Source: a virus. From it: 64,000 nt of DNA. The stretch covers positions 95,665 through 159,664 of the IMG/VR virus record IMGVR_UViG_3300017971_000201; one strand, 5' to 3'. Shown here in pieces: positions 4 through 31,188 of this stretch. Numbering within the stretch: position 1 is the first letter of the stretch; the number at the start of each line of letters is the position of its first letter. Both the position numbers and the translations under genes were made by a program. The notes under the pieces were generated by a model. It worked only from the letters and a program-made list of their open reading frames with translations, did not search any database and had not been told where the DNA came from.

Positions 4-933
4 ATGAGCGAGCTGGAAATCGGTACCGAGGTCTACTGGCACGACAAGAACGGCGTCCGCCAGCGCGGCCGGGTCTGCGCTGACGGCGCCTCTCAGGTGG
101 TCCGGCCCTACGACGCGATCGGCCGGCTCCAGCTCGAGAAGCACGTGCCCGTCAGCCCGCTCATGAAACTCGCGTCAGGTGTCGATCAGCTGGCGGAACT
201 GGCTCCGATCGTCATGCACCTGTCCCACCTGATCGAGCAGTACGAGGGTGGCCGTGGCGCCCCCAAGTCGACCTACTGCGGCGACTGGAAGATCGACATC
301 AGCACCAGGCCGTGGACGCTCCACAGTCCGAAGACCACCGTGGACCCGGTTCGCGTGCACCAGCGCGGGCTCTGCTCCGACGAGCTGTGGAAGAATCTGA
401 TCGAGGACACCGCGCTGGCCCTGGACCGCAGCGACCGCAGCGAGCCGCTCGCGGACCGCGAGCTGCCGGACGAAGCCTACGAGAAGGCCGCCGAGCTGAA
501 GCTGTGCCGTCGCTGCTTCCGCGCGGCGGTGATGGAGCGCACGTGGCCGCTCGAGCCGGCGCGGCTGTCCGAGGAGGCGCTACGCGAGTTCGTGCTCGGC
601 TTCCTCGACGGCAGCGTCTACTCGGATCGGCACATTCCGTCCTGGGAGATGGTGGCTCGGGCTGAATCCCCAGAAGAGATCCAGCGCGCGCAGGAGCGGT
701 GGGGACGGGACACCTCGATGGTCTTCATGTGCCTGATGCTCGGTCCGCCGCCGCCGAAGGACTACGCGGAGAAGGTCGCGGTCGTGTGGGAGTGGTTCAG
801 CAAGGCCGGCCCGCGCTCGATCAACGGAATGCCGGGGTTCTTCTCGCACCACTTCATGCACATCGACGACTGGAAGCGCGCGGCTCCCGCGATCGACCGG
901 GAGCTGGAGCGCCGGCGGGAGTTCGAGATCTAG
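4..933 (+). CDS. hypothetical protein; N-terminal SH3-like barrel followed by the shared tag motif (SGVDQLAELA) and unknown domains
   Basis: 309-aa ORF with phage-like codon usage; ELEIGTEVYW start resembles other SH3-like small genes in the window. Confidence 0.7.
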   Translation: MSELEIGTEVYWHDKNGVRQRGRVCADGASQVVRPYDAIGRLQLEKHVPVSPLMKLASGVDQLAELAPIVMHLSHLIEQYEGGRGAPKSTYCGDWKIDISTRPWTLHSPKTTVDPVRVHQRGLCSDELWKNLIEDTALALDRSDRSEPLADRELPDEAYEKAAELKLCRRCFRAAVMERTWPLEPARLSEEALREFVLGFLDGSVYSDRHIPSWEMVARAESPEEIQRAQERWGRDTSMVFMCLMLGPPPPKDYAEKVAVVWEWFSKAGPRSINGMPGFFSHHFMHIDDWKRAAPAIDRELERRREFEI

Positions 934-940
934 GAGAGCC

Positions 941-949
941 GGGTAGAAC
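941..949 (+). promoter_or_regulatory. GGGTAGAAC promoter box upstream of cas12
   Basis: Same motif precedes >20 gene starts in the window; AGGAGG RBS at 962-967 then GTG at 974. Confidence 0.65.
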
Positions 950-973
950 GTCGATGCGACCAGGAGGCGAAGC

Positions 974-2938
974 GTGGGAGCAGCGCGAAGACGAAACCCC
1001 AAGGTAGCCGCAGCCAGGAAAGGGAAGCCGCCGCCCAAGGCCACCGGCAACTGCCGGAACTACAGGTACGGCGCGCACGAGCCGATCGCCAATCTGGACA
1101 AGGTGCTCGATGAGATGCGCGGTGCTCACGACCTGCGCAACGTGCTGACGTGCATCAACCGAGCCCGAAGCGAGATGATCACGGCCGCGCTCGGCGAGCA
1201 CCAGTCGTACAAGAAAGCCACTGCTGATCTGGCGGCTCTGCACCAGCGGCGCGACAAACTGGAGGCGCAGATCCGGCAACAGAACAGCGCCAGCCGCAAA
1301 CGGCTGGGGCGACACTCCCCGCTGTCTTCGGAACTCGACACCGTTCGCAAGAGGATCGACGAGGGCAGGACCGCTCTCAAGAAACTCCGCAGGAAGCTCC
1401 TCAAGAAAGACCCCGCGCTGAAAGCGGTTGTCGAGGCCGCTGACGACATGGCGAAGAGGGAGACGACTCGCGCGGAAGATGCCTGCGGGCTCTACTGGTG
1501 CACCCGAAACGAGCAGACCGGCAAACGCGCCAAGCTGCGCCGCTTCAAGAAGTGGCGCGACAGCGAAGCGACCATCAGCGTTCAGATCCCAGGGGGGTTG
1601 ACCGTTGAGCAGCTGCTTGGCGGCGAGAACAACCAAGCGCGCCTGGAGCTGCGCCCGGAAGGCGTATGGGTCCAGGGGGCGAGGAAGCGCAAGGTCGAGC
1701 CGGCCGAGGCCGCGAGGAACAAACTCAGACTCGACGAAGACGGCTACCCCATGCGCAAGCTGGGGACCGCCATCCTGCATCTCCGGTGCATGTCAGACGA
1801 GGACGGCAAGCCGATTTGGGCCGAGGTGCCGATCACCTACCATCGCGAGATCCCCGCCGATGCCAAGATCAAGCGGTGCTACTTGCACCGATTCCGGGTC
1901 GGCAACCGCTACCACTGGTCTGTACGCTTCTCGCTGGAGCGGGGGAAGAAAGGCGACGACTCCTGGCTGCACCCGCGCGTCGCCACGACCGGCACGGCCG
2001 CGATCGACATCGGCTGGCGATGGTTCCCCGATCGCCTACGCGTCGCCGTGTGGGCCGGATCGGACGGAGCCGAGGGCGAGCTGTGCTTGCCCAAGTGGTG
2101 GCTGGACGAGATGTACTCCGTCCGGCTCGACCAGCGGGAGCGCGACGTGCTGTTCAACGAGATCGTATCCCTGGTCCTGCCGTGGTTCCGATCGCGGCGC
2201 GGGGAGCTGTCCGACTACGTCGTACAGGCGATCAAGACGATGCACTCGTGGCGCGACAAGGGAAGGCTGGCCGCGCTCTCCATGCGCTGGCGCGATGATC
2301 TGGCCGCCGATCCGGGCGCCAACCCGGCTCACGTCGCCATGTCCATCCGCCTGGAGGAGTGGCGTAAGCGCGACAAGCACATCTGGTGCGAGGAGGTGAA
2401 CCTCCGCAGCCAGCTCCAGGGCTCGCGCAAGGATCTCTACCGGCGATTTGCCGCGATGCTCACCAGCCGCTACGGCCGAATCGTGGTCGAGGAGTTTGAC
2501 CTGAGTGCGGTCCAGAAGCTCCCGCCGGCCTCGATCGATGACGGCACCTACTCCAGGGTCAAGAGGCACAAGGGAGACGCGGCGTGCTCGCACCTGGTCG
2601 GCGCGCTCAAGGATGCGGCGCGGCAGCTGGACAAGAAGAACCCGAAGTGGACGACCAAGCGGTGCCACGTCTGCGGGAAGACCGAGAGGAAGTGGGAGAA
2701 CCCCGGTGAGCTGGAGCACACGTGCAAGCACTGCGGAGTGCTCTGGGATCGGGACGTGAACGCGGCCCGGAACATTCTCGCCGCGAGCGGCGTGGCGGTT
2801 GACTGGACCCGGCCACCGCTCGCGCCAGCCGCCCGAATGACTTATCCACAGGTAGAGAACCGCGAGATGCGTCGATCGCGGCGCAGGAAGGAGGCGCTCG
2901 AAACGACGCGTGCAAGCGGTGATCGACAGACGGCTTAG
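974..2938 (+). CDS. cas12: type V CRISPR effector, Cas12m (V-U1)-like, RuvC triad intact
   Basis: 654 aa; RuvC-I AIDIGWR (D345), RuvC-II IVVEE (E506), Zn finger CHVC..CKHC, RuvC-III DRDVNAA (D594); N-terminal motifs GLYW, ISVQI, VPITYHREIPADA, KDLYRRFA recall Cas12m; array begins 10 nt after stop. Confidence 0.85.
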   Translation: MGAARRRNPKVAAARKGKPPPKATGNCRNYRYGAHEPIANLDKVLDEMRGAHDLRNVLTCINRARSEMITAALGEHQSYKKATADLAALHQRRDKLEAQIRQQNSASRKRLGRHSPLSSELDTVRKRIDEGRTALKKLRRKLLKKDPALKAVVEAADDMAKRETTRAEDACGLYWCTRNEQTGKRAKLRRFKKWRDSEATISVQIPGGLTVEQLLGGENNQARLELRPEGVWVQGARKRKVEPAEAARNKLRLDEDGYPMRKLGTAILHLRCMSDEDGKPIWAEVPITYHREIPADAKIKRCYLHRFRVGNRYHWSVRFSLERGKKGDDSWLHPRVATTGTAAIDIGWRWFPDRLRVAVWAGSDGAEGELCLPKWWLDEMYSVRLDQRERDVLFNEIVSLVLPWFRSRRGELSDYVVQAIKTMHSWRDKGRLAALSMRWRDDLAADPGANPAHVAMSIRLEEWRKRDKHIWCEEVNLRSQLQGSRKDLYRRFAAMLTSRYGRIVVEEFDLSAVQKLPPASIDDGTYSRVKRHKGDAACSHLVGALKDAARQLDKKNPKWTTKRCHVCGKTERKWENPGELEHTCKHCGVLWDRDVNAARNILAASGVAVDWTRPPLAPAARMTYPQVENREMRRSRRRKEALETTRASGDRQTA

Positions 2939-2948
2939 GAGAGATGCT

Positions 2949-3335
2949 CTCGCGGTCCCATCGGAACGGGTTGTGGTTCCGACAACGTGGACTGGGAACG
3001 CTTCTACAGAGCCTTCGCTCTCGCGGTCCCATCGGAACGGGTTGTGGTTCCGACACGCACCAGAGTCCCTTCCCGGCCCGCCGCGCTCCACTCGCGGTCC
3101 CATCGGAACGGGTTTGTGGTTCCGACACAGGTAAATGCAGGTCCCCAGGTGCTTGTGGCTCGCGGTCCCATCGGAACGGGTTGTGGTTCCGACACAGGTA
3201 AATGCAGGTCCCCAGGTGCTTGTGGCTCGCGGTCCCATCGGAACGGGTTGTGGTTCCGACGTAGCAGAAGTAGTCGCCGATCTCGACCTCCACCACGTCC
3301 TCGCGGTCCCATCGGAACGGGTTTGTGGTTCCGAC
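2949..3335 (+). CRISPR. CRISPR array, 6 repeats / 5 spacers
   Basis: Repeat CTCGCGGTCCCATCGGAACGGGTT(T)GTGGTTCCGAC at 2949, 3020, 3091, 3159, 3226, 3300 (35-36 bp); 3-prime hairpin TCGGAAC/GTTCCGA; spacers 36, 36, 32, 32, 39 bp; spacers 3 and 4 identical. Confidence 0.97.
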
Positions 3336-3410
3336 AGATTCATGTAGGCGGGCGGTAAGGCGGCTACCTCCGCATCGCCGCCGCCCGCTTCGGAACCCGC
3401 GCCCTGATGC

Positions 3411-3439
3411 AGAAAGGGCGACGACCGAAGTCGCCGCCC
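3411..3439 (-). terminator. intrinsic terminator of the capsid gene
   Basis: Minus strand GGGCGGCGAC-TTCG-GTCGTCGCCC-TTTCT, UUCG tetraloop, 30 nt after MCP stop. Confidence 0.8.
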
Positions 3440-3469
3440 CCTCCGCTGACAGCTGGTCTAGCCCGAGGG

Positions 3470-4903
3470 CTAGAGCAAATTGTCCACTTCCACGCGCGCG
3501 AAGAACTCCGCCCGGGTGAGCGTGATCTTGTGGCGCGTACGGACCGCGCGACGGAGGCTCAGGTCATTCGGGTCGATGAAGTTCGGGGTGATCTCCATCG
3601 GGATGTACGGGCTGTAGATGAGCCCGGTGTCGAGGATGCTCGGCCCCTGGTATCCCATGAGGATCTGGTTGGCCGGGAAGAGCGGATCGACGAAGATCAG
3701 CCACTTCCTCTTGAGCACGCCCTGCTTGAGGATCCCGCCCTGGTAGACGTGACCCTCCTCGACGGCCGAGAAGCCATCGATGTTGTCGAGGAGGCTGGCG
3801 ACCTCCGACGACGTGATCGCCCAGTTGCAGGGCGCCCGCTGCGTGCGACGGTGCACGATGTGGGAGGCGCGGGACATGCGGATCACGAGCGACTTGAGGT
3901 GCTCGGGATCGCTGACGCCCGAGGGCGTCGCCCGGTCCCACTTGACGACGGCGATCGGCTCGACGGCGTTGAGCGCGGTACCCGCGATCTCGCGGTCGAT
4001 CTCCGCCACCATCTCGTCGGACATCTGCGCGACCAGGTCGGCGTCGATGTCGCGACCCCACAGCGCGCGGAGGTCGTCCGCCGCCTCGACGCTGGCGAGG
4101 CTCTTGAGCTTGCGGCTCTCGGCCTCGATGCTCTTGATCTGGATGTCCAGCTGGACCTCCGGGATCCGAGCGTTCAGCTCGTTGTCGTAGCGGTACTCGA
4201 CCGTGATGACGTCACCGGACGCCGGCGCGGTGCCGAACGTGAGCGACATCTGGCCCGACGCGTAGTTGACCGTGCCAGCGCCGCCGGCCATCAGCGTGCC
4301 GGCGACGACGGTGAACGCGCCCGCGCCGTTGTCGGTCGCGTTGACGGTACCGTTCACCTTCACGACGACGGTGGCCTGCCGGGGGCGGGGCCACGCGAGG
4401 TTGCGGGAGAAGACGACCGTGCCGCCGTCGCCGGTCCCGAACGGCTCGCCGTCCACGAAGTTGGAGCTGTACCACTTGTTCAGCACCTTGTTCATCTCGG
4501 TCATGGCGGCGACGGAACCCTTGTCCGACGCGTACCGTGGCCGGTAGAACGCGATGCCGCCGATCGGGCCGGTCATCGGCTGGACCGACGCGATCTGCGT
4601 CGCGACCAGGCGGATGGCGGTCCTGCGGATGACGGGCAGGACGTACTTCATGAACGGCCCGACCGAGAGAGCGCGAGTCTCCTCGTTGAGCCGCTTGAGG
4701 TGACGAACCTCCTGCTCGATCATCAGGGCCGTCAGACCCCGCACGTAGTTGACGTGGGCCGGCGCGTAGCCCGGACCCATCTCCTCGTTGAGACCCCGGA
4801 GCATCTTGTGCCACTTGCGCACGTACCGGCTGACGGCCGGCTCGTCCGCGATGGCAGTCGACTCTCCGAGGTTCTCGGCTAACAGTCCTCGAGCCGTGAA
4901 CAT
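3470..4903 (-). CDS. major capsid protein, T4 gp23-like
   Basis: VQPMTGPIGGIAFYRPRY, AESRKLK, AEIDREI, GYQGPSILDTGLIYSPYIP motifs. Confidence 0.95.
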   Translation of the reverse strand: MFTARGLLAENLGESTAIADEPAVSRYVRKWHKMLRGLNEEMGPGYAPAHVNYVRGLTALMIEQEVRHLKRLNEETRALSVGPFMKYVLPVIRRTAIRLVATQIASVQPMTGPIGGIAFYRPRYASDKGSVAAMTEMNKVLNKWYSSNFVDGEPFGTGDGGTVVFSRNLAWPRPRQATVVVKVNGTVNATDNGAGAFTVVAGTLMAGGAGTVNYASGQMSLTFGTAPASGDVITVEYRYDNELNARIPEVQLDIQIKSIEAESRKLKSLASVEAADDLRALWGRDIDADLVAQMSDEMVAEIDREIAGTALNAVEPIAVVKWDRATPSGVSDPEHLKSLVIRMSRASHIVHRRTQRAPCNWAITSSEVASLLDNIDGFSAVEEGHVYQGGILKQGVLKRKWLIFVDPLFPANQILMGYQGPSILDTGLIYSPYIPMEITPNFIDPNDLSLRRAVRTRHKITLTRAEFFARVEVDNLL

Positions 4904-4915
4904 CGGCTACCTCCT

Positions 4916-7735
4916 CTAGTGCCGGTGCATCCGCCCGGCCAGTCGCTCTTGCTCGACCAGCGACGTCCCCAGGAACGCCAAGTCCTGGGATGCTGCGTCG
5001 CCGGCGAGAAGTTCTGCTTGTTCGCTCTCCTCGAACGCTCGCCGCTCGTCCTCGGTGATGTGCTCGCGGCCGGCGCTCATGGACCTGCGCACGCGCTCCA
5101 TGGGACCGCCGGGCTCCTGCGCCCGGATCTCCGACCGAGACGCGGCGGCGTCGATCTCCCTGGTGGAGGTCAGCTCGTCGTTGCGAACGTCCTCCATGAT
5201 CGACTCACGGTTCGGGTGACCGATCGTCCGGTCGCTCGCGTATGCCAGGAGCTTGGCCCTGGTGCCGGCCGTGACAGCCCGCTCGAGCATGTCGGCCTGC
5301 TCCTCGATCCGCGCCCGCGCGTCCCGGACCTCCTCGTCCTTGCTCTCGAGAGCGGACGTCAGACGCTCCTCCAGGGCCTCGAACCTCTTGGTGACCTCGG
5401 ACCGGTAGCGCTTCTCACGCGCCTCTGCCTGGGCGAGCGCGTACTCGGCCTCGGACGCCCTCTCCTCCGCGAGGCGGATCGCGGTCCCGGCCTCCTCGTT
5501 CGCGGCGGTCTTCGCCGACATCTGTGCTTCCTCGATCGAGGTCAGCGCTGACTCGACTCTTGTCTTCAGCTCCTCGGCGGTGTTGCACGCAGCGATGTCG
5601 CCGATCAGGTCGCGGACGCTCTCTCGATCCTCGCGTCCGCCGATCATCTGCTCCACGTAGAGCTGGAACGCCAGCTGGCGTGTCTTCTCCTCGACGTGCA
5701 CGACGCGAGACTCCGCGTCCTTGGCCTTCTGCTCCTGCTCGTCCGCTGCCCGGGACAGCTCCTCGATCTTGGCATCCTTCTCGTCCAAGACCTTCTTCTC
5801 GTCGGGCGACGGGGCGTAGGGGTTGACCATCTCGGCGATCTTCTTGAGCGCCAGCTTCGCGCCGGCCGTCTCGGGATCGCTCGCGAAGTCGCTGCGGACC
5901 TCCTCCTCGACCTTCGTGCGCATCTCGGCCAGCGCGCGGACGAGCTTGGCCGCGAAGTCCTCGCGCAGCTCGTCGATCGCCTTCTTGTAGATCTCCTCCT
6001 TTTGGGACTCGACCTCACCGTTGATCCGGTCGTCGGTGTCCTCGGCCGCAGTCTCCGAGGCCACCCGCATCGCGTGCTGCTCGATCACGCGAACCGCGTC
6101 CGGGAAGTGCTGGCGCAGCATCGTCTCGGTGACCTCCTTCGGGTCCACCACGAGCTTGCCGGTGGGCTTGCCCTCGCCGTCCGTGTCCTCGGAGATCACG
6201 GACGGATAGGCGTCGTGGCAGGCCGGATCGGCCACGAAGTCCCACGTGTTGAGCTTGAAGTCCTCGCCGACCATGTCCCAGCCCCGGGGGCCGGTGGACG
6301 TGGAGCCCATGCCCCGGCTGGACATGCCGATGGCCGCACCCCGCCGCAGGAACGCGGCGAGGTTGCGACCCGCGTCGGCCTCCTCGACGACCTCGAACTT
6401 GCCGTTGATCGTCCCGTCGTCCTCGATCCAGAGACCGCGAACGATGCAGCCGCCCTCCCGGATCCGGCTGTTGTGGTTGACGGTGAAGTCGCCCAGCAGG
6501 AACCGGCCGTCGCCGTCCAGCTCGAATCCGGCGTAGTCGCCAGTTCCGATGGACGTGACGATGAACCCGGTCCTGAGCGCATCCTTTCGCTGCTCGCGCG
6601 GCTCGGCCTTCTTGCGCTCCAGACGGGTCGGGATCTGCTCCACGTCGCCCCAGATGGTGAGCGTGTGGTAGTCGTCGCTGTAGCCCTGCACCTTGCGCGT
6701 GGAGAGCACGGCCTGGAGGCCGAGCGACTTGGCGATCCGGTGCGCGGCCTGCGCATAGTCGGCGCGCTTCTGGGTGATGTAGAAGCAGTTGTGCTGGAGA
6801 TGACCGTCGGTGTCGATCAGCCCAGCAAGGAACTGGAGACGGGTCTCGCGGCTCCCGCGCACAATCGCGGTCGGGATCTCCACGTTGGTACCCACCATGT
6901 CGCGCATCGCGCGCAGCAGCCGGTTGTCTTGGCCGCGACCGGCGGTCAGGTGGATCGTGACGGCCTCGGTCCCGGTGGTCTTGCGCCACTCGTTCGTGGA
7001 CAGCTCCCACCGTGCGGCGGTGTCCTCGCAGAGCTGCTTGATCTCGTCATCGATGGTCGTGATCGAGATGTCACCAATCCTGGGCGCACCGGCCTTGTTC
7101 TCGCGCAGGGTCTTGCCACCGTCACCGAACCAGACGCCGAGGAAGTAGGGATCGACCTTCGGTTCGGGCAGCTCGTCCTCGAACCGCTCGACGCCGGTGC
7201 TGAACAGCTTGTAGCGGCTCTTGTAGTAGATGCTCTTGTCGAGATAGTCCTCGACCGGGATGTCCACGATCTCGCCGCTGGACGTGTGAACCAGCGTCAG
7301 TACGTGCTTGTCGTTGCAGACCCACGGATCGCCCTTCGCCGGGTCGATCCGGTAGAGCTGGCCGGTGCCGGAGGTTGTCGCCAGCACCGTGCGCGCCTTG
7401 CCGTCCGGCCCCATGAGTCGGTCGCCAGCGACGATCTGCTCGACCGGGAGCACGCGACCGTCGGCCATGAGGACCGGAGTCCCCAGGCCGAGGCACTTGC
7501 CGTCCCCGGGATGGTCGACCGCGCCGATGACGCTCCCCTGCTCGATCCGGGGCTGGAGTCTTCCGATCTCCCTCTCCATGACCGAGCGGGGGTAGACGCG
7601 GTTGTTGGCCGTCGGCTTGTCCACGTGGCCGATCTTGCCTTCGACCACGAGCTTGCCACCGTCCCTCCCTTCGAGGATCTGCATCCTCATGGGCGGACCG
7701 TAGTGGTCGACCAGCACGCGCCTGTTCGTCGTCAT
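4916..7735 (-). CDS. prohead protease (T4 gp21-like) with intein, fused to long acidic coiled-coil scaffold region
   Basis: NNRVYP, GAVDHP, GMSSRGMGS, DFVADPA motifs; intein at aa 81-422; C-terminal about 400 aa helical and E/K/A-rich. Confidence 0.9.
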   Translation of the reverse strand: MTTNRRVLVDHYGPPMRMQILEGRDGGKLVVEGKIGHVDKPTANNRVYPRSVMEREIGRLQPRIEQGSVIGAVDHPGDGKCLGLGTPVLMADGRVLPVEQIVAGDRLMGPDGKARTVLATTSGTGQLYRIDPAKGDPWVCNDKHVLTLVHTSSGEIVDIPVEDYLDKSIYYKSRYKLFSTGVERFEDELPEPKVDPYFLGVWFGDGGKTLRENKAGAPRIGDISITTIDDEIKQLCEDTAARWELSTNEWRKTTGTEAVTIHLTAGRGQDNRLLRAMRDMVGTNVEIPTAIVRGSRETRLQFLAGLIDTDGHLQHNCFYITQKRADYAQAAHRIAKSLGLQAVLSTRKVQGYSDDYHTLTIWGDVEQIPTRLERKKAEPREQRKDALRTGFIVTSIGTGDYAGFELDGDGRFLLGDFTVNHNSRIREGGCIVRGLWIEDDGTINGKFEVVEEADAGRNLAAFLRRGAAIGMSSRGMGSTSTGPRGWDMVGEDFKLNTWDFVADPACHDAYPSVISEDTDGEGKPTGKLVVDPKEVTETMLRQHFPDAVRVIEQHAMRVASETAAEDTDDRINGEVESQKEEIYKKAIDELREDFAAKLVRALAEMRTKVEEEVRSDFASDPETAGAKLALKKIAEMVNPYAPSPDEKKVLDEKDAKIEELSRAADEQEQKAKDAESRVVHVEEKTRQLAFQLYVEQMIGGREDRESVRDLIGDIAACNTAEELKTRVESALTSIEEAQMSAKTAANEEAGTAIRLAEERASEAEYALAQAEAREKRYRSEVTKRFEALEERLTSALESKDEEVRDARARIEEQADMLERAVTAGTRAKLLAYASDRTIGHPNRESIMEDVRNDELTSTREIDAAASRSEIRAQEPGGPMERVRRSMSAGREHITEDERRAFEESEQAELLAGDAASQDLAFLGTSLVEQERLAGRMHRH
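6470..7495 (-). mobile_element. intein with LAGLIDADG homing endonuclease in the prohead protease (342 aa)
   Basis: Starts CLGLGTPVLMADG, ends FTVNHN with +1 Ser; YFLGVWFGDG and FLAGLIDTDG motifs. Confidence 0.93.
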
Positions 7736-7802: not shown

Positions 7803-9056
7803 CTACTCGATCCCCTTCATCGCCTCCATCGCGTCGTCCAGGTCTGCCGCGAGCGCCCGCAGGTCGTCGGCCGCGTCGTTGATGTCCGCCTCGCCCTCGG
7901 CGATCCGCTGGGCGACGGCCGCCGAGTCCTCGGCGATCGACTCGAGGTGCCGGCCCATCGCCACGCGGGGGTCGTCCTCCTTGTCCTCCTCGTCGAGCGT
8001 CTCGTCCTCGTTGACCTCCTCAGCGATCCGCTCGTAGAAGGTCGTGGACGTCTCGTAGATGCTCCTGAGACCGTCGATCAGCTCCTCGGCGGCCGAGTCG
8101 TCGCTCTGGACGGCCTCGCGCAGGTCGTTGAGGTTCTGGACCAGCTCGGAGATCGGGTTGCCCTGGGTCTCCACGTCGGCGGCCATCTTCTTGCCCTTGA
8201 TCCTGGCCTTGACGTCCATCGCCGTCACGCCCTGCTGCGCCTTGAGCCGCTTCTTGAGCGCCTTGCGCATCCTGGGGCTCGCCGACCGCATCTTCTTGCG
8301 GAACTCGGCCCTGGCCTGGGCGCCGGCCTTGAACTCGTGGCCGCCGATCATCATCCGACCACGCTTGGCTGCCTTGAAGGTCGACTTCTTCATCTTGCCG
8401 CGCTTGAGCAGCCGGCCCTTCTTGCGCCGGGCCTTCCTGAGCGCTCTCAGCGCACCGGCCCGCTTGGACGCCTCGTCGAGGACCCCGTCGGTGATGCACT
8501 CGTACGCCTCGATCACGCCGACCAGGTCGTCGTAGGACGGCGCGTCGTCGTCCTCGGTCATCGCCTGGAGGCCGTCGTAGAAGAACCCGAGCACCTCGGC
8601 GGCGGCCTCCATCTTGGGGTCGTCGATCTCCTCGTCCTCGTCCTTCTCCTCCTCGTCCTCGTCCTCGTCCTCGTCCTCTTCCTCGTCCACGCTCGACTCG
8701 AGCGCCTCGATGAAGACGTCCACGAACTCGTCGCTCTCGAGCGCCTCGTCGACCTGGTCCTCGTCCAGCTCGAGCGTCTCCATGAACTCGCCGACCGCCT
8801 CGAAGAACTCGTCCTCGTCGATCTCGATCTCCTCGTCCTCGTCCTCGGCGCGGACGTCGACCTCGGTCCTGGGAGTCTCATCGTCGTACTCCCGACCCTC
8901 GGTCTGCTCCTCCTGGCCCTCGTCCTCGTCCTCGTCCTCGTCGTCACCGCCCTTGGACGACGGGCAAGCATCGGCCTCGGCGAGAAGGTGGCCCATTCCG
9001 AGAGCCTGGAGATCCTCCTCGATCGTGGTCTGGGGTCCGTGGTCTCCCAGCATCAT
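7803..9056 (-). CDS. highly acidic prohead core/scaffold-like protein
   Basis: Position between portal and protease; D/E tracts flanking a K/R-rich central segment. Confidence 0.6.
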   Translation of the reverse strand: MMLGDHGPQTTIEEDLQALGMGHLLAEADACPSSKGGDDEDEDEDEGQEEQTEGREYDDETPRTEVDVRAEDEDEEIEIDEDEFFEAVGEFMETLELDEDQVDEALESDEFVDVFIEALESSVDEEEDEDEDEDEEEKDEDEEIDDPKMEAAAEVLGFFYDGLQAMTEDDDAPSYDDLVGVIEAYECITDGVLDEASKRAGALRALRKARRKKGRLLKRGKMKKSTFKAAKRGRMMIGGHEFKAGAQARAEFRKKMRSASPRMRKALKKRLKAQQGVTAMDVKARIKGKKMAADVETQGNPISELVQNLNDLREAVQSDDSAAEELIDGLRSIYETSTTFYERIAEEVNEDETLDEEDKEDDPRVAMGRHLESIAEDSAAVAQRIAEGEADINDAADDLRALAADLDDAMEAMKGIE

Positions 9057-9060
9057 GGTC

Positions 9061-9897
9061 CTACTCCTTCGTTTCGTTCGCGTTGTCTTGCTCGGCCAGG
9101 CTCGAGAGGAACTTGGCTCCCATCAGAAGGTGGCTCGCCATACTGGACACGCCCTCGTAGACGCCGGCCAGCTCGGCCTCGTCATCGCGGCTCGCAGCAT
9201 CGAGCGCCTGGATGGCGTACTTCATGTCCGCCGCGATGTCCCGAGCGGCCTCCTCGATCTCCTTCGAGGTACCCTCGGCCTTGGAGAGCAGCTGGATCGA
9301 CTCGGCCGTGCTCTTGGCGGCCGTGGTCAGCGCTGCCCGGAGATCATCGACGCTCCCCGGCAGGTCGTGAGCGCGAGGGGCGGGGATCTCGATCTGTGCG
9401 TCCTCGCCGACTCCCTCGCGCACGACCTTGTGCCACCAGGCGTCCCGCTGGATGGAACGCTTGGACACCTCGGTCGCGACCTGCTCGCCGAGATCGCCTT
9501 TGTAGTTGAGCGCATTGGCGATGCCCGCAACCAGCGGTATCGCCGCGTCGTAGTCGTCCGCCAGGATCATGGAGACAGCCGCCTTGGCCGTTTCCATGAC
9601 CTCGGCTCCGACGTCCCCCACCTTGTCGGGGATGTCGAAGACCTCCACCTCGCCCAACTCGATCTTGCCGTCCTCTTCCTCGATCCGCACGCGCATCAGG
9701 ATGCCGTTCTTCTCGGCGAGCGCGTGGTGAGGATACGTCGCGAGGAGCTGAGCCGGTCCGGCTGCCCACTCGGAGCTGGCTAACGCCTCCGCAATACGAT
9801 CACGTCGGAACTCGAGCGACCCCTCTCGCAGATGGGAGAGAACATCCTCGGCCTGCCTCACGTTCCGCAGGAGACTGATGATGGCTGCATCCTTCAC
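9061..9897 (-). CDS. hypothetical head-module protein
   Basis: 278-aa helical ORF in the head operon with GGAGG-type RBS. Confidence 0.65.
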   Translation of the reverse strand: MKDAAIISLLRNVRQAEDVLSHLREGSLEFRRDRIAEALASSEWAAGPAQLLATYPHHALAEKNGILMRVRIEEEDGKIELGEVEVFDIPDKVGDVGAEVMETAKAAVSMILADDYDAAIPLVAGIANALNYKGDLGEQVATEVSKRSIQRDAWWHKVVREGVGEDAQIEIPAPRAHDLPGSVDDLRAALTTAAKSTAESIQLLSKAEGTSKEIEEAARDIAADMKYAIQALDAASRDDEAELAGVYEGVSSMASHLLMGAKFLSSLAEQDNANETKE

Positions 9898-9959: not shown

Positions 9960-12900
9960 CTACTGACCGTGGAATCTTCGGGTCATCGCGAGCAGCTCCT
10001 TCCGGGAGAACTTCCCGGATGGCGGAGCGGACATGCTGCCGCCGTTGGTTCGGCGCAGCAGGCCACGGACCTCCTCGAAGAACGCGCGCCGCTCGTGCTC
10101 GCGCCTGGCGAAGCCTTTGTCGCCCTCCAACAGACGATTGAGCTTGTCCGAGATCTCGGAGTGCCGGCGGCTCGACTCCCTGTACTTCCATTCCTCGAGA
10201 CGTCGCTCGTAGTCGTAGCGCTTCCACTCCTCTGGCGTCGGTTTCTTCCCCTTGCCGACCGCCGGGGCCTTGGGCTTGGGCGACGGCTTGGGCGCCGGCT
10301 TAGGGGTTCCCTCCTCCTCCTCCGGCGGCGCTTTCTCTGGCGCCTCCTCCGGCGGAGCCTCCTCCGGCTCTTCCTCCCCGCCCGGCGGCGGGGCCTCTGG
10401 CGGCCCGCCCTGGCCGCCGCCCATCGCGTAGCTGGGCAGATCGCCGGCCTGCTCCTCCTCGGAGTCCTTCTTCTGTTGCTTCTCGATCTCCTTGATCTCC
10501 TCCTCGGAGAACTTGAGGATGTTCTCCTGGATCCAGCGGGTGCTCACCCACGGCTGAATCCGGCTCGCGTAGTCAGCTGCCGCGTTCATGGTCTCGTAGG
10601 CCGCCAGCTCCCAGATCCCCGAGGGCACGGTCATCTCGATCGTGAACTCGGGCTTCCAGGGATCGCGCACGCCGCGAGCGGCCAGGTGCGTGCGAATGAC
10701 CCTCTCCCAGCCGATCTTCAGCTCGCGCTGGAGATTCAGGGTCACCCGGGCCGCGCGAACGTCGTCGTTCGACAGAATCGACTTCGACGGCGGGGCCTCG
10801 TCCTTGCCCAGGTAGGCGCGCGGGACCTTCAGTGTCGCGTGGAGCATCTGCTTGAAGTACTCGACATCATCGACGGCCTGGTAGTCCGGGCCGGAGAGGA
10901 CGTCCACCCTGGCCAGCTCGCGGCCCTCGCGAACGGCGATGAAGAAGTCCTCGTCACGGGCGAGAGGGTTGTAGCGGAGATCCAGCCGGCCGGATCGGGG
11001 GTTGACCATCCGCTTCTTCTTGAGGTCCCGCTTCGCCTTCTGAAGGAATGCGCCGACCTGGTCGGACGGGATGTCGGTCGTGTCGATGTAGTAGGCGTAA
11101 CGAGCTGGCGCGCGCGTGTTGTGCACCACGCACCCGTCCGCGACGAAGTTGTGCTCGTCGGCCTCGACACCGATGTCATAGATGTCATCTGTCTCGATTT
11201 CCTCGACGCCGCGAATCACCTCTGTCTTCGCCTGGGGCTTGAAGGAGACGTCCAAGCAATAGGACGTGCTGGTCGGAAGCGGCTTGCTGGAGCCTTTGAT
11301 CGTTCGACCGCCCGCTCGCGTACGAGACCAAACGAAGGTGGCGACCAGCCCGAGTTGCATGGCCAGCTCGCGCACATCCTCCAACAGCTGCTTGTTGCAC
11401 ATCTCGAAGCGAGCGCGCTCGTAGCGCGTCTTCCTTCCCTCCTTGCGGGGCTTGATGTGTGCGTCCGCGTCGGCAAGCCCTCGGATCATGGCCAGCTTGA
11501 GCTTGGGATGCGCTCGGAAGATCCACTCCGGCAGACGCTTGTGGTGGGCGCCGGGGACGAACCCGTTGAGCGTCATGAACTCAGCGAACTTGCCGGAAAC
11601 GATCGTGTAGGCGCCTAGCCGGTGGCCGGTATCGCCGACCAGCTTGACTGGCGCATATTTCTCGAAGAGAGCCTTGTACTGCTCGTTGATGTCCTGGTGC
11701 GCCCCAAGCGCGAACCCGGTCTCGTTCTGAGCAACGTGAGCCTCAGAGTGACCTGGGCGCAGCTTATGAGTGCGGGTGGCGACGAACCCGTCCCCGAGCA
11801 TGAACCCCCACCACCGCGCGAAATCCGCGTCGGCGGTTTCCGGGACCGTGATCCCTGTAACAGGAGTGCCGCGCTCACCGCCCCAGTGCTCCTCGATCTC
11901 CAGATGCTCTGGGCCGTGACCGTTGGCTTCCAGCAACGCTACGGCAGTATCGGTCTTGAGGTCATAGTCGCCGGCGAAGAAGTCGCGTGCCCGGCAGTGA
12001 TGCACACCGACCTGCTTCGCAATCTTGGGGTAGGGCATGGTCCGCTCGACAGCCCCGACGAGTCGCGCCTTGCTGTGGAGCTGCGGCCTTTCGAGGTAGA
12101 TCTCCTCCCAGTCGTCTTCGTTCTTGGAAGGGGTGACGAACCTGTGCACGCCAGGCTCAAGGTTCTGGACCTCCACGTAGTCCAGCCGGCGGATCTGGGG
12201 AATACCCTTGCCCCGGCCGACAACCGTCTCGACCAGAACAGGGTGCGTCCTGTTGGCGAAGATCTCCCTGTGGTCGCTGAAGACGCGGAAGATCTTGTCC
12301 TGGCCGTTGTGCTTCTTGTAGACGACCTTCGTCTTCTTCAGCCGGTGATCGTTGCCCGGATCGGTGTAGGAGTAGACCTCATCTCCCTCCTGTAGATCCT
12401 TGATTGCCTTACGGCCGTCTGGCGTCCAGATCTGAGAGTCTCCGCGCAAGCAGAGCTTGTAGATCAAGACCGAGTCCTCGAGCATCACCAGCCGCTTCCA
12501 GATCCAGCGAGCGCCCTCAGCGACCGAGACGCCGTAAGGCGACCGCCGCCGCGTCGCGCGCAGGCGGAAGTGGGCAACCTGCCAGTCCTCGAACAGGGCG
12601 AGACTCCTGGGGATCTCGACGTTGCCGGCGAGCATCCGCCGCAGCTCTTGGCTGTTCGCGGTGAACTGGCCGGTGACGTCCTGCACGAAGCCGATCAGAC
12701 CGCCGTCCAGACGCTCGACCCGGCGCATCGTGGGAACCGGGAGCGTATTGGTCCCGACGATCCCGTTCTCGGTAATGAGCAGCTCGAGGTAGTCGTTGCC
12801 CATCATCCCGAGGCCGTAAGCCTGTGGCCAGATCTCGTCCTCGACCCGCAGGATCCGGTGCATCAGGTCATTGCCCAGGCCCTTGAGAGCGTCGTCCTCC

Positions 12901-13202
12901 GACATGACCCAGATGCAGCGGCCGTCCTTGACCGAAGGCTGGGTCGCGTCGTTGGCAAAGTAGTGGAAGGCGCTGTTGATGTCCGGGTACTCCTCCATCG
13001 CCTCGTAGTCGGCAAACCGATCCATGAGCGACTGGGAGACGGTGAGCAGACCGCCGATGTCCTCGCGCCCCCAGACCGTGAACATGCTCGGCACGTGGTG
13101 ACGCATCGCCGCGACAGACGGAGAGTCGGCCTTGGCCCGCTCCTCCTGTGGAGCGCCGAATACGTTTCGGAGCGCCTTGACCGCCCTATCACGGAGGGCC
13201 AT
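9960..13202 (-). CDS. portal protein (T4 gp20-like) with intein
   Basis: LEDSVLIYKL/TRAPARYAYYID (gp20 EDA.VIYRITRAP motif split by intein), EDFFIA, DDVEYF, LKVPRAYL. Confidence 0.93.
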   Translation of the reverse strand: MALRDRAVKALRNVFGAPQEERAKADSPSVAAMRHHVPSMFTVWGREDIGGLLTVSQSLMDRFADYEAMEEYPDINSAFHYFANDATQPSVKDGRCIWVMSEDDALKGLGNDLMHRILRVEDEIWPQAYGLGMMGNDYLELLITENGIVGTNTLPVPTMRRVERLDGGLIGFVQDVTGQFTANSQELRRMLAGNVEIPRSLALFEDWQVAHFRLRATRRRSPYGVSVAEGARWIWKRLVMLEDSVLIYKLCLRGDSQIWTPDGRKAIKDLQEGDEVYSYTDPGNDHRLKKTKVVYKKHNGQDKIFRVFSDHREIFANRTHPVLVETVVGRGKGIPQIRRLDYVEVQNLEPGVHRFVTPSKNEDDWEEIYLERPQLHSKARLVGAVERTMPYPKIAKQVGVHHCRARDFFAGDYDLKTDTAVALLEANGHGPEHLEIEEHWGGERGTPVTGITVPETADADFARWWGFMLGDGFVATRTHKLRPGHSEAHVAQNETGFALGAHQDINEQYKALFEKYAPVKLVGDTGHRLGAYTIVSGKFAEFMTLNGFVPGAHHKRLPEWIFRAHPKLKLAMIRGLADADAHIKPRKEGRKTRYERARFEMCNKQLLEDVRELAMQLGLVATFVWSRTRAGGRTIKGSSKPLPTSTSYCLDVSFKPQAKTEVIRGVEEIETDDIYDIGVEADEHNFVADGCVVHNTRAPARYAYYIDTTDIPSDQVGAFLQKAKRDLKKKRMVNPRSGRLDLRYNPLARDEDFFIAVREGRELARVDVLSGPDYQAVDDVEYFKQMLHATLKVPRAYLGKDEAPPSKSILSNDDVRAARVTLNLQRELKIGWERVIRTHLAARGVRDPWKPEFTIEMTVPSGIWELAAYETMNAAADYASRIQPWVSTRWIQENILKFSEEEIKEIEKQQKKDSEEEQAGDLPSYAMGGGQGGPPEAPPPGGEEEPEEAPPEEAPEKAPPEEEEGTPKPAPKPSPKPKAPAVGKGKKPTPEEWKRYDYERRLEEWKYRESSRRHSEISDKLNRLLEGDKGFARREHERRAFFEEVRGLLRRTNGGSMSAPPSGKFSRKELLAMTRRFHGQ
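11118..12452 (-). mobile_element. intein with LAGLIDADG homing endonuclease in the portal (445 aa)
   Basis: Starts CLRGDSQIWTPDG, ends NFVADGCVVHN with +1 Thr; WGFMLGDG and MIRGLADADA motifs. Confidence 0.93.
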
Positions 13203-30645: not shown

Positions 30646-31188
30646 TCATACCGGCGGCAGCGGCGGAGCAACGGCCGGCGGACCCCCGAAGATCCGACCG
30701 AGCAGATTGTCGTCGTCGTCGTCGTCGTCATCGGCGTCGTCTTCGTCGTGCTCGACGTCGATCAGCTCCCCGATCCAGCGACAGGTCCACTCCCGGCCCT
30801 CGGGAACTCCCAGCTCGCGCTTGCGCGCGGTGATCCGGCGCTGACGGGCCTCGATCTCGTCCTTGTCGGCGAGGTTCGACAAGAGCGTGATCGGATCCAC
30901 GCGATCGAGAGGCGCCCAGTCATCGTCCTCGCGCCTCCGCGCGTGGGCAAGCGAGATCGGCTGCCCCTGAGACGTGTAGACCCTGGTCTCGTAGATCGGA
31001 TCCCCGGTACGCTCATCGAACTTGACCAGGTTCTTCGTGGCAACGAAAGGCAGCTCCCAGACCCGGACCTTTCGAGCTTCCTCTGACAGCCGCCTTCGCC
31101 AGCCGAAGGAGTCCATCACCAGCTTGACGAGGCTCTGCCGAACCGCGACGCGGATGCCGCTAGACCTGATCGCCGAATCCAAGTTCAT
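30646..31188 (-). CDS. hypothetical protein
   Basis: GGAGGAG RBS; DPITLLSNLA; acidic tail. Confidence 0.6.
   Translation of the reverse strand: MNLDSAIRSSGIRVAVRQSLVKLVMDSFGWRRRLSEEARKVRVWELPFVATKNLVKFDERTGDPIYETRVYTSQGQPISLAHARRREDDDWAPLDRVDPITLLSNLADKDEIEARQRRITARKRELGVPEGREWTCRWIGELIDVEHDEDDADDDDDDDDNLLGRIFGGPPAVAPPLPPV

What the first reader, a model, noticed from the sequence alone, without database searches (positions are those of the whole stretch)
974..3335. Phage-encoded Cas12m-like effector with a canonical D-E-D nuclease triad and minimal array
Seen: 654-aa RuvC/Zn-finger protein with D345, E506, D594; array starts 10 nt after the stop; no cas1/cas2/cas4 or obvious tracrRNA; it sits tail-to-tail with the capsid operon and uses the phage GGTAGAAC promoter. 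Established: characterised Cas12m (V-U1) proteins have a degenerate RuvC (LHLGWR in RuvC-I), process their own crRNA and silence rather than cut DNA. Inference: IDIGWR here suggests a cleavage-competent, possibly ancestral V-U1 branch used against competing phages or host genes.
Basis: partly seen in the sequence, partly recalled or inferred. Interest (0 to 1): 0.78.

Follow-up and report, generated by a model that had tools for sequence, protein, structure and literature searches.

The report
Cas12m CRISPR cassette in jumbo phage
A large T4-like phage from marine and sediment samples carries a real, compact CRISPR system (a Cas12m protein plus five guide spacers) in a swap-prone slot beside its capsid gene. 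This kind of system, including its "intact" nuclease motif, is already known, and tested relatives bind and silence DNA rather than cut it.

Summary
ORF 974-2938 (+) encodes a 654-aa protein with D345/E506/D594 and a CxxC...CxxC zinc finger. A 6-repeat, 5-spacer array starts 10 nt after its stop. It matches the V-U1/Cas12m profile end to end (E 6e-77). An AF2 model (pLDDT 92.5) matches the Cas12m cryo-EM structures far better than Cas12f or TnpB.

It is unambiguously phage-borne. The contig is a 159.7-kb T4-like virus record, and the cassette (938-3466) sits between a conserved gene and the major capsid gene. A complete 275-kb sister genome carries HNH and CoiA-like nuclease genes in that slot and has no Cas12m.

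D-E-D is the norm among the nearest relatives (131 of 148). It defines published Cas12m clades 3 and 4. D-E-D orthologues that were tested do not cut DNA (Bigelyte 2024). The most likely function is therefore RNA-guided DNA binding and silencing of competing elements.

No spacer target was found anywhere. Array content differs between three assemblies of the same phage.

Phage- or MGE-borne V-M is already reported: a 2024 review, a 2026 myxophage preprint, and an unannotated locus in GenBank virus Rctr197k. Another first-stage note of this scan (e1-5643653) flagged this same stretch. This is a new member of a known kind, of moderate interest.

The parts
4..933 (+). Upstream conserved phage gene (309 aa, no Pfam or PHROG match). 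It forms the left border of the variable slot.
   Evidence: ORF; no family match. An orthologue at 79% aa identity is present in sister phages L090, L091 and L104. DNA homology to the sister phage ends at window 937.
938..3466 (.). The lineage-specific cassette: promoter motif, cas12m, CRISPR array and terminator region. The sister phage has different cargo here.
   Evidence: blastn of the window against L104 aligns 3-937 and 3467-5200 only. In L104 the slot holds an HNH endonuclease and a CoiA-like nuclease. No Cas12m in the complete 275,101-bp sister genome.
942..949 (+). GGTAGAAC promoter-like motif shared with many phage genes
   Evidence: 26 copies in the window against 0.66 expected. There are 39 in the 159.7-kb contig; 12 of them have a start codon exactly 6 nt downstream and others sit 15-25 nt upstream of a start codon, some with a visible Shine-Dalgarno. 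Function as a promoter is inferred.
962..967 (+). Shine-Dalgarno AGGAGG, 6 nt before the GTG start
   Evidence: Read directly from the sequence.
974..2938 (+). cas12m (type V-M / V-U1 effector), 654 aa. RuvC D345/E506/D594; zinc finger C564, C567, C584, C587; coiled-coil REC region about 41-170.
   Evidence: PADLOC Cas12u1 E 6.2e-77 over profile positions 2-529 of 533. PDB Cas12m 23vw E 1.2e-55. AF2 model pLDDT 92.5. Foldseek top hits 8pm4 and 8hhl with TM 0.68-0.76. Conservation.
2949..3335 (+). CRISPR array: 6 repeats (35-36 nt core) and 5 spacers, co-oriented with cas12m
   Evidence: The repeat forms a 7-bp 3' hairpin (TCGGAAC/GTTCCGA) ending 1 nt before the repeat's 3' end. Five other Cas12m-linked repeats form the same hairpin with different stem sequences.
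2984..3019 (+). Spacer 1 (cas-proximal). Present in the window and in L003, absent from L002.
   Evidence: No target found.
3055..3090 (+). Spacer 2
   Evidence: No target found.
3127..3225 (+). Spacer 3, one repeat, then an identical copy of spacer 3 (tandem duplication of a 67-nt unit). The spacer occurs once in L002 and L003.
   Evidence: (family D2, 99% identical). No target found.
3261..3299 (+). Spacer 5 (distal). Its reverse complement reads as a high-GC3 coding sequence.
   Evidence: and reading of the sequence. No target found.
3336..3469 (.). Convergent intergenic region with GC-rich hairpins; likely terminators for cas12m-array (+) and the capsid gene (-).
   Evidence: Minus-strand fold -75.9 kcal/mol, z -3.69, with a 17-bp hairpin. 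Plus-strand hairpin at the array end, z -1.25. Terminator function is inferred.
3470..4903 (-). Major capsid protein (T4 gp23-like). It forms the right border of the slot.
   Evidence: phrog_138 E 6.5e-52; Pfam Gp23; 95% identical in sister phages.

Best explanation
This is a functional, self-contained type V-M CRISPR-Cas12m locus carried as an accessory cassette by a T4-like jumbo phage.

Inferred mechanism:
- One transcript starts at the phage GGTAGAAC-type promoter and runs through cas12m into the array 10 nt downstream.
- Cas12m itself trims the pre-crRNA. Each crRNA keeps the 3' part of the repeat (a hairpin/pseudoknot handle) and roughly the first 17-20 nt of the spacer.
- The ribonucleoprotein finds PAM-flanked matching double-stranded DNA and forms a stable R-loop.
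- The displaced strand is held by the Arg-rich REC pocket and the Mg-binding RuvC site.
- This blocks transcription or replication of the target without cutting it.

The targets are most likely co-infecting phages or other mobile elements in the same host.

Shown here: family membership, fold, array anatomy, phage location, and the cassette nature of the locus. Inferred: co-transcription, self-processing, binding-only interference, and the class of target.
For: - Family: full-length match to the V-U1/Cas12m profile, best PDB sequence hit is Cas12m, and the best structural hits are GoCas12m and MmCas12m2 at TM 0.68-0.76 against 0.56 or less for Cas12f and TnpB.
- Guide RNA: the repeat has the Cas12m-type 3' hairpin, with stem covariation across six loci. 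The CCC/GGG stem I, read by eye, matches the pseudoknot described for PmCas12m crRNA.
- Binding residues: basic residues at R108, R110 and R125 are 80-89% conserved. They sit at positions comparable to the Arg111/112/126 NTS pocket of Cas12m2.
- Published biochemistry: D-E-D, H-D-D and N-D-D Cas12m all bind and do not cleave, and they still protect against phage and plasmids. H-D-D to D-E-D conversion did not restore cleavage.
- Gene integrity: the ORF is intact and 100% identical in three independent assemblies, with 99-100% identical fragments in two further runs.
- Array: spacer content differs between assemblies.
- Expression signals: a promoter-like motif and a Shine-Dalgarno sequence.
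- Precedent: V-M is known to be MGE-enriched and is thought to act in inter-element competition.
Against: - No protospacer was found for any spacer, so the target class is a guess.
- No RNA data exist for this phage, so expression and crRNA processing are unobserved.
- All 20 members of the well-supported clade that holds this protein keep D-E-D. This shows selection on the active site, and binding-only function explains it only if the triad is needed for Mg-dependent strand binding.
- Cleavage-negative results exist for only a handful of D-E-D orthologues, none from this clade. The best identity to any characterised protein is low (19-20% to the solved Go and Mm structures).
Confidence: 0.6

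Rival explanations
1. One reading: a cleavage-competent Cas12m. The intact D-E-D RuvC cuts or nicks target DNA, so this would be a nuclease-active V-M branch used in phage warfare.
For: - D345, E506 and D594 are present and at least 90% conserved.
- All 20 members of the enclosing clade keep D-E-D.
- Omura 2023 explicitly speculated that clades 3 and 4 might hydrolyse DNA.
- Degrading a competitor would serve a lytic phage well.
Against: - The four D-E-D orthologues tested showed no dsDNA nuclease activity. Purified MsCas12m showed no target or collateral cleavage.
- Restoring D-E-D in Cas12m2 gave no cleavage.
- The nearest solved D-E-D relative is deposited as a DNA-binding protein.
- The triad alone is therefore not predictive in this family.
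Confidence: 0.17
2. A programmable repressor of host or phage genes, working like TldR or a self-regulating cr-like RNA, rather than an anti-MGE weapon. The guides would silence host defence or metabolic genes, or time the phage's own genes.
For: - Cas12m silences transcription.
- The spacers read like high-GC coding sequence (reading).
- No match to any viral contig was found.
- Some phage CRISPR systems target host defence loci.
Against: - No match in the phage's own 159.7-kb contig; the best hits lie outside the guide-proximal part of the spacer.
- No match in the complete sister genome.
- The one spacer tested, S1, has no match in 185,579 species genomes.
- Spacer content varies between samples, which fits an arms race better than fixed regulation.
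Confidence: 0.12
3. A recently acquired, selfish or decaying passenger cassette with no current function for the phage.
For: - It occupies a hypervariable slot that in the sister phage carries selfish nuclease genes.
- It is absent from all 15 related IMG/VR loci and from 5 related records.
- The array is small and contains a duplicated spacer.
Against: - The 654-aa frame is intact and every conserved family residue is present.
- The protein is identical in three assemblies from different samples.
- It has its own phage-type promoter motif and a strong Shine-Dalgarno sequence.
- Its GC content matches the phage.
Confidence: 0.07
4. An IS200/IS605-type TnpB, or a Cas12f-type effector, mislabelled as Cas12m.
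For: Pfam recognises only the shared TNB domain, and NCBIfam gives weak TnpB hits to the C-terminus.
Against: - Those hits cover only residues about 470-610 and fall far below the curated cut-offs.
- The full-length match is to Cas12u1, and the fold match is to Cas12m.
- The gene is followed by a CRISPR array rather than by IS ends or an omega-RNA.
- The neighbouring gene calls show no transposase; the upstream gene has no family match and the downstream gene is the capsid gene.
Confidence: 0.01

Closest known systems
D-E-D Cas12m orthologues (Cas12m clades 3 and 4 of Wu 2022; for example MsCas12m from Meiothermus silvanus, Bigelyte 2024 PMC11013384; PDB 23vw 'CRISPR-associated DNA-binding protein Cas12m')
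   Same: - Same family and the same IDxGWR / E / D triad.
- Same CxxC...CxxC zinc finger.
- About 600 aa, with an adjacent array and no tracrRNA.
- 23vw aligns over residues 22-605 at E 1.2e-55.
   Different: - Sequence identity to the nearest public relatives is only 36-39% in alignment A1.
- This protein is longer (654 aa), with a basic N-terminal tail and a C-terminal helix.
- It is encoded in the structural-gene region of a T4-like phage rather than on a bacterial chromosome or plasmid.
- Its activity is untested.
MmCas12m2 (8hhl) and GoCas12m (8pm4), the H-D-D Cas12m silencers
   Same: - Same overall fold, TM 0.68-0.76.
- Coiled-coil REC, RuvC with an inserted zinc-finger TNB, and a repeat-derived crRNA handle.
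- Presumably the same binding-based interference.
   Different: The RuvC triad here is D-E-D, not H-D-D (HLGWR in those proteins). Identity is only 19-20%.
MvCas12m of myxophage MV-1 (bioRxiv 10.64898/2026.09.14.751636)
   Same: - A phage-encoded V-M effector with a conserved D-E-D (D305/E463/D555).
- An adjacent small array (8 spacers).
- No cas1, cas2 or cas4, no tracrRNA, and no spacer targets found.
   Different: - 610 aa against 654 aa, in a different phage lineage and host.
- Here the cassette borders, the sister genome without the cassette, and the array polymorphism are documented.
Virus Rctr197k (GenBank KX853510.1), ORF Rctr197k_108 plus the annotated CRISPR
   Same: A Caudoviricetes record with a 622-aa Cas12m-like ORF (28% identity, IDLGWR / E / D). 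A roughly 21-repeat array with a 3'-hairpin repeat ending in GAC starts 34 nt downstream.
   Different: The ORF is annotated only as 'similar to transposase'. The array is much longer, the sequence is distant, and the phage is unrelated.
Other phage-borne miniature type V systems (CasPhi/Cas12j, CasLambda/Cas12l)
   Same: Compact single-effector type V loci on large phages, without adaptation genes, thought to target competitors.
   Different: Those are active nucleases from different Cas12 families. Structural matches to them are weak, TM 0.23-0.33.

Membership tests
Cas12m (type V-M, formerly V-U1) | Full-length sequence similarity to the V-U1/Cas12m profile | tested here: met
   PADLOC Cas12u1 E 6.2e-77, protein residues 26-604 on profile positions 2-529 of 533. 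PDB Cas12m 23vw E 1.2e-55.
Cas12m (type V-M, formerly V-U1) | Bilobed fold with a coiled-coil REC2 'sickle', a WED domain, and RuvC with an inserted zinc-finger TNB | tested here: met
   AF2 model pLDDT 92.5, pTM 0.88, with four long helices at 41-170. Foldseek top hits are 8pm4, 8hhl and 8hio (TM 0.66-0.76), well separated from Cas12f and TnpB. The four zinc-finger cysteines are conserved.
Cas12m (type V-M, formerly V-U1) | Adjacent CRISPR array, crRNA-only guide (no tracrRNA), and a roughly 36-nt repeat with a 3' stem handle | tested here: met
   The array lies 10 nt after the stop codon. No anti-repeat was found in the window. The 3' hairpin is shared, with covariation, by six Cas12m-linked repeats.
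Cas12m (type V-M, formerly V-U1) | RuvC triad state falls among the published clade patterns (HEK/HQK, HDD, DED/NED, DED/DND/NED) | tested here: met
   D345/E506/D594 matches the clade 3/4 pattern.
Cas12m (type V-M, formerly V-U1) | Usually no adaptation module in the locus | tested here: met
   No Cas1, Cas2 or Cas4 in the 159.7-kb contig, with positive controls ringing in reference genomes. The contig is about 58% of the genome, so absence from the whole phage is not shown.
Cas12m (type V-M, formerly V-U1) | PAM-dependent dsDNA binding without target cleavage; interference by silencing | not testable with these tools
   Needs biochemistry. Literature on orthologues only.
Cas12m (type V-M, formerly V-U1) | Autonomous, RuvC-independent pre-crRNA processing | not testable with these tools
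   No RNA run holds this sequence.
TnpB (IS200/IS605, IS607) | About 400 aa, within IS ends, with a 3' omega-RNA and often a TnpA neighbour; no CRISPR array | tested here: not met
   654 aa. NCBIfam TnpB hits reach only 27-41 bits against cut-offs of 100-425, and only on the C-terminus. A CRISPR array follows the gene.
Cas12f (V-F) | Full-length similarity to Cas12f profiles and structures | tested here: not met
   The NCBIfam Cas12f2 hit is 23 bits against a cut-off of 450. Foldseek TM to Cas12f is 0.3-0.5. The one strong 'Cas12f' PADLOC model (PDLC01692) duplicates the Cas12u1 hit. Whether the protein needs a tracrRNA or acts as a dimer, as Cas12f does, was not tested.

The most novel reading that the evidence does not exclude
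The clade that holds this protein (20 of 20 members D-E-D, mostly on contigs full of short unannotated ORFs) could be a nuclease-active or nicking branch of Cas12m specialised for mobile elements. Its small array may also turn over in nature (spacer 1 present or absent at the cas-proximal end) without phage-encoded adaptation genes, for example by borrowing host Cas1-Cas2.
Probability: 0.15. Interest if true: 0.7.

Novelty: new member of a known kind. Interest (0 to 1): 0.36.

Why it matters
This is a clean, well-bounded natural example of a virulent-type (T4-like, about 275 kb) phage that has taken up a type V-M system. There is a complete sister genome without it and population-level variation in the array. 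That makes it a convenient case for asking what phage-borne binding-type CRISPR effectors are used for, and why D-E-D is so strictly kept in a family whose tested members do not cut. It does not change what is known about Cas12m. D-E-D clades, carriage on mobile elements and phage carriage are all already on record.

Tried and rejected
Spacer targets: none found.
- Exact 22-mers of spacers S1, S2, S3 and S5 against IMG/VR.
- Codon-wobble patterns of S5 against IMG/VR and JGI metagenomes.
- Codon-wobble patterns of S1 against JGI metagenomes and 185,579 species genomes.
- The whole array by blastn against GenBank phages and PLSDB plasmids. Only chance-level hits, E 0.4 or higher.
- The phage's own contig.
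- Five related phage records, including the complete sister genome. E 0.036 or higher, matches of 14-30 nt.

Other searches that gave nothing:
- The repeat in the species genomes, looking for a host array that could supply spacers in trans: no match.
- Close relatives of the protein in IMG/VR by peptide patterns: none.
- Megablast of the first 20 kb against GenBank phages: none.
- Rfam on 850-3550: nothing.
- The sigma-70 promoter scan: nothing. The phage evidently uses another motif.
- PHROG scan of neighbours of the closest homologues: only an integrase, so I do not claim those contigs are phages.

RNA evidence: no RNA holder was listed for this sequence. The laid runs are DNA contigs only and break at the array.

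MAFFT alignment of six repeats (A2) was out of register because loop lengths differ. I used per-sequence folds instead of pair counting.

I did not resolve clade 3 versus clade 4, or identify the organism behind PDB 23vw. A literature search for Cas12m3, Cas12m4 and Cas12m4a returned nothing.

Host identity was not determined.
Full report
**What is there.** The window is the last 64 kb of a 159,664-bp IMG/VR virus record that CheckV rates 58% complete. ORF 974..2938 (+) starts with GTG, 6 nt after an AGGAGG, and encodes 654 aa. Ten nucleotides after its TAG stop comes a CRISPR array with six repeats (35-36 nt core) at 2949-3335. Repeats 3 and 6 carry one extra T in a loop position. The five spacers are 32-39 nt long, and spacers 3 and 4 are identical as part of a 67-nt tandem duplication. 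The array is followed by 134 nt rich in GC hairpins. After that comes the stop codon of the major capsid gene (3470-4903, minus strand; phrog_138 E 6.5e-52, Pfam Gp23). The capsid gene heads a T4-like morphogenesis block: a prohead protease and a T4-type portal, both with intein-like inserts, and further along gp13 and sheath.

**What the protein is.**
- Pfam sees only the C-terminal Cas12f1-like TNB domain, and NCBIfam gives only sub-threshold TnpB hits on the C-terminus.
- The PADLOC Cas12u1 (V-U1 = Cas12m) model matches end to end at E 6.2e-77.
- Against PDB sequences the best hit is 23vw, 'CRISPR-associated DNA-binding protein Cas12m', at E 1.2e-55 over residues 22-605. GoCas12m (8pm4) and MmCas12m2 (8hhl) follow.
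- An exhaustive HMMER search found 3,422 cluster representatives at E below 1e-3 and 1,016 below 1e-30. The nearest non-identical one is 36-39% identical in the multiple alignment.
- An AlphaFold2 model built on 148 of these has mean pLDDT 92.5 and pTM 0.88. Its best structural matches are the Cas12m cryo-EM structures (TM 0.66-0.76). Cas12f, TnpB, Cas12j and Cas12l reach only 0.2-0.56.

The 'would refute' condition of the finding, clustering with IS-borne TnpB or another subtype, is therefore not met. This is a Cas12m.

**The guide RNA.** On the plus strand the repeat folds into a 7-bp hairpin (TCGGAAC/GTTCCGA) that ends one base before the repeat's 3' end. I found five other Cas12m-linked arrays. 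Two are next to the closest homologues (L006, L004), one is at the end of L008, and two are in IMG/VR (L011, L012). Their repeats form a hairpin at the same place with different stem sequences. Upstream, a CCC...GGG pair brackets the 5' strand of the hairpin. This gives the same interleaved two-stem arrangement described for PmCas12m crRNA. I read that by eye and did not compute it. This fixes the array's orientation: it runs with cas12m, with the repeat 5' of the spacer. It also explains the lack of any tracrRNA-like anti-repeat.

**The catalytic triad.** D345, E506 and D594 are each at least 90% conserved in the 148-sequence alignment. 131 of 148 rows are D-E-D. The rest are scattered variants (NGD, DKD, HKD, NDD and others) that need at least 12 independent changes on the tree. 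The query sits in a well-supported clade of 20 rows (SH-like 99), all D-E-D. So the triad is the norm here and not a special feature.

The literature has already covered this:
- Wu 2022, as summarised by Omura 2023, split Cas12m into clades by triad: 1 HEK/HQK, 2 HDD, 3 DED/NED, 4 DED/DND/NED.
- Turning the H-D-D of Cas12m2 into D-E-D did not restore cutting.
- Bigelyte 2024 chose four D-E-D, two H-D-D and two N-D-D orthologues. All bound DNA in a PAM-dependent way without nuclease activity. Purified D-E-D MsCas12m showed no target or collateral cleavage. Pre-crRNA processing was unaffected by a RuvC mutation.

LHLGWR/HLGWR is indeed what MmCas12m2 and GoCas12m show. The inference from IDIGWR to cleavage competence does not follow. 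Strict conservation of D-E-D still needs an explanation. The published structure suggests one: the RuvC site binds the displaced strand through Mg, and mutating it weakens silencing. That transfer to this protein is an inference. Basic residues at R108, R110 and R125 are 80-89% conserved. They are candidates for the Arg-rich strand pocket of Cas12m2 (R111, R112, R126).

**It is a cassette in a variable slot.** Fifteen IMG/VR loci encode related capsid proteins (68-95% identity), and none encodes Cas12m. One of them belongs to a complete 275,101-bp genome with terminal repeats. That size fits the 58% completeness estimate for this contig. DNA homology between the window and that sister genome stops at 937, four bases after the upstream gene's stop, and resumes at 3467. 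In the sister genome the slot holds about 3 kb with an HNH-HTH homing-type endonuclease and a CoiA-like nuclease. No Cas12m homologue exists anywhere in that genome or in four other related records. The same query finds the gene at E 0 in its own record, which serves as the positive control. GC content across the cassette equals the phage average.

**Expression signals.** GGTAGAAC occurs 26 times in the window against 0.66 expected, and 39 times in the contig. Twelve copies have a start codon exactly 6 nt downstream, which fits leaderless genes. Others, including the one at 942-949, sit 15-25 nt upstream of a start codon, some with a visible Shine-Dalgarno. So the cassette carries the phage's own promoter-type motif. 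Most other copies precede small accessory ORFs rather than structural genes, which hints at a non-late class. That is inference only.

**Population data.** The identical protein is encoded on two ENA metagenome contigs (86.5 and 57.4 kb) and one Logan contig. The arrays differ:
- This window has S1-S2-S3-S3-S5.
- L003 has S1-S2-S3-S5.
- L002 has S2-S3-S5.

Gain or loss of the cas-proximal spacer and a unit duplication both fit a live array. Recombination between identical repeats, or assembler choices, could produce the same patterns, and the data cannot tell gain from loss. Logan unitigs of the probable source run cover each junction, and the spacer-3 unit has about 1.6 times the depth of the flanks. 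The phage DNA occurs in sediment and seawater metagenomes, with 99-100% identical gene fragments in two further sediment and wetland runs.

**Targets.** None were found in any collection searched; the full list of searches is under Tried and rejected. By eye, spacers 1 and 5 read as in-frame coding sequence with G or C at most third positions, which suggests a high-GC source. That is as far as the evidence goes.

**Comparison with what is known.**
- A September 2026 preprint reports MvCas12m (610 aa, D305/E463/D555, 8 spacers, no adaptation genes, no targets) in a myxophage as the first phage Cas12m.
- GenBank virus Rctr197k (KX853510.1) carries a 622-aa Cas12m-like ORF with the D-E-D residues, annotated 'similar to transposase'. 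It lies 34 nt upstream of an annotated CRISPR with about 21 repeats.
- Two more IMG/VR contigs have Cas12m-like genes with arrays of 15 and 22 repeats.

This locus is therefore a further, divergent member of a known kind. Its particular merits are the unambiguous phage context, the mapped cassette borders and the array polymorphism.

**Verdict.** The 'cleavage-competent, possibly ancestral' inference is not supported. The most likely function is a binding-type, crRNA-guided silencer aimed at competing mobile elements (about 0.6). A nuclease-active reading remains possible at about 0.15-0.2. Interest is moderate to low.

Noticed in passing
window 4916-7735 (-) and 9960-13202 (-): The prohead protease (939 aa) and the T4-type portal (1080 aa) are both oversized. 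Both carry Hint / LAGLIDADG homing-endonuclease Pfam hits, so they probably contain inteins. Some sister phages match the protease only at residues 1-80 and about 400-935, which suggests the insert comes and goes.
   Followed up: partly
whole contig; for example window 942, 16612, 19414, 37248, 46699 (+) and many on the minus strand: GGTAGAAC is a strongly over-represented motif (26 against 0.66 expected; 39 in 159.7 kb). It is often exactly 6 nt before a start codon. This looks like a phage promoter class that drives leaderless genes.
   Followed up: partly
L104:8435-11480 (sister phage, complete 275-kb genome): The slot that holds cas12m in this phage holds an HNH-HTH endonuclease (8517-9668) and a CoiA-like nuclease (10194-10790) in the sister phage. 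The site looks like a hotspot for mobile nuclease cargo next to the capsid gene.
   Followed up: partly
L105 (GenBank KX853510.1, Virus Rctr197k) 3953-7369: A Cas12m-like ORF with the D-E-D residues, annotated only as 'similar to transposase', lies directly upstream of an annotated CRISPR with about 21 repeats. This is an unrecognised phage V-M locus in a public record.
   Followed up: yes
L010:2183-2876 (IMG/VR 3300031802_000007): Just upstream of a Cas12m-like gene that has no array nearby lies about 700 nt of degenerate 5-nt periodic repeats (GTCAA / GTCGA / GTCAG ...). Their nature is unknown.
   Followed up: no
L004:10387-11939 (NCBI GCA_029261855.1 contig JAJDAN010000066.1): A 747-aa member of the same clade is followed by an array of about 22 repeats. 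It sits among dozens of short unannotated ORFs, with a tyrosine integrase 3.6 kb downstream. This is probably an integrated element.
   Followed up: partly
window 30814-30910 (+): ARAGORN calls a tRNA-Arg(TCG) 97 nt long with the anticodon at position 38. That is unusually long for a tRNA-Arg, so it may carry an insert.
   Followed up: no
run X2/X3 contigs laid at window 901-934: Short contigs from two runs match the end of the upstream gene at about 91% and then continue with unrelated sequence instead of cas12m. This fits further relatives that lack the cassette.
   Followed up: no
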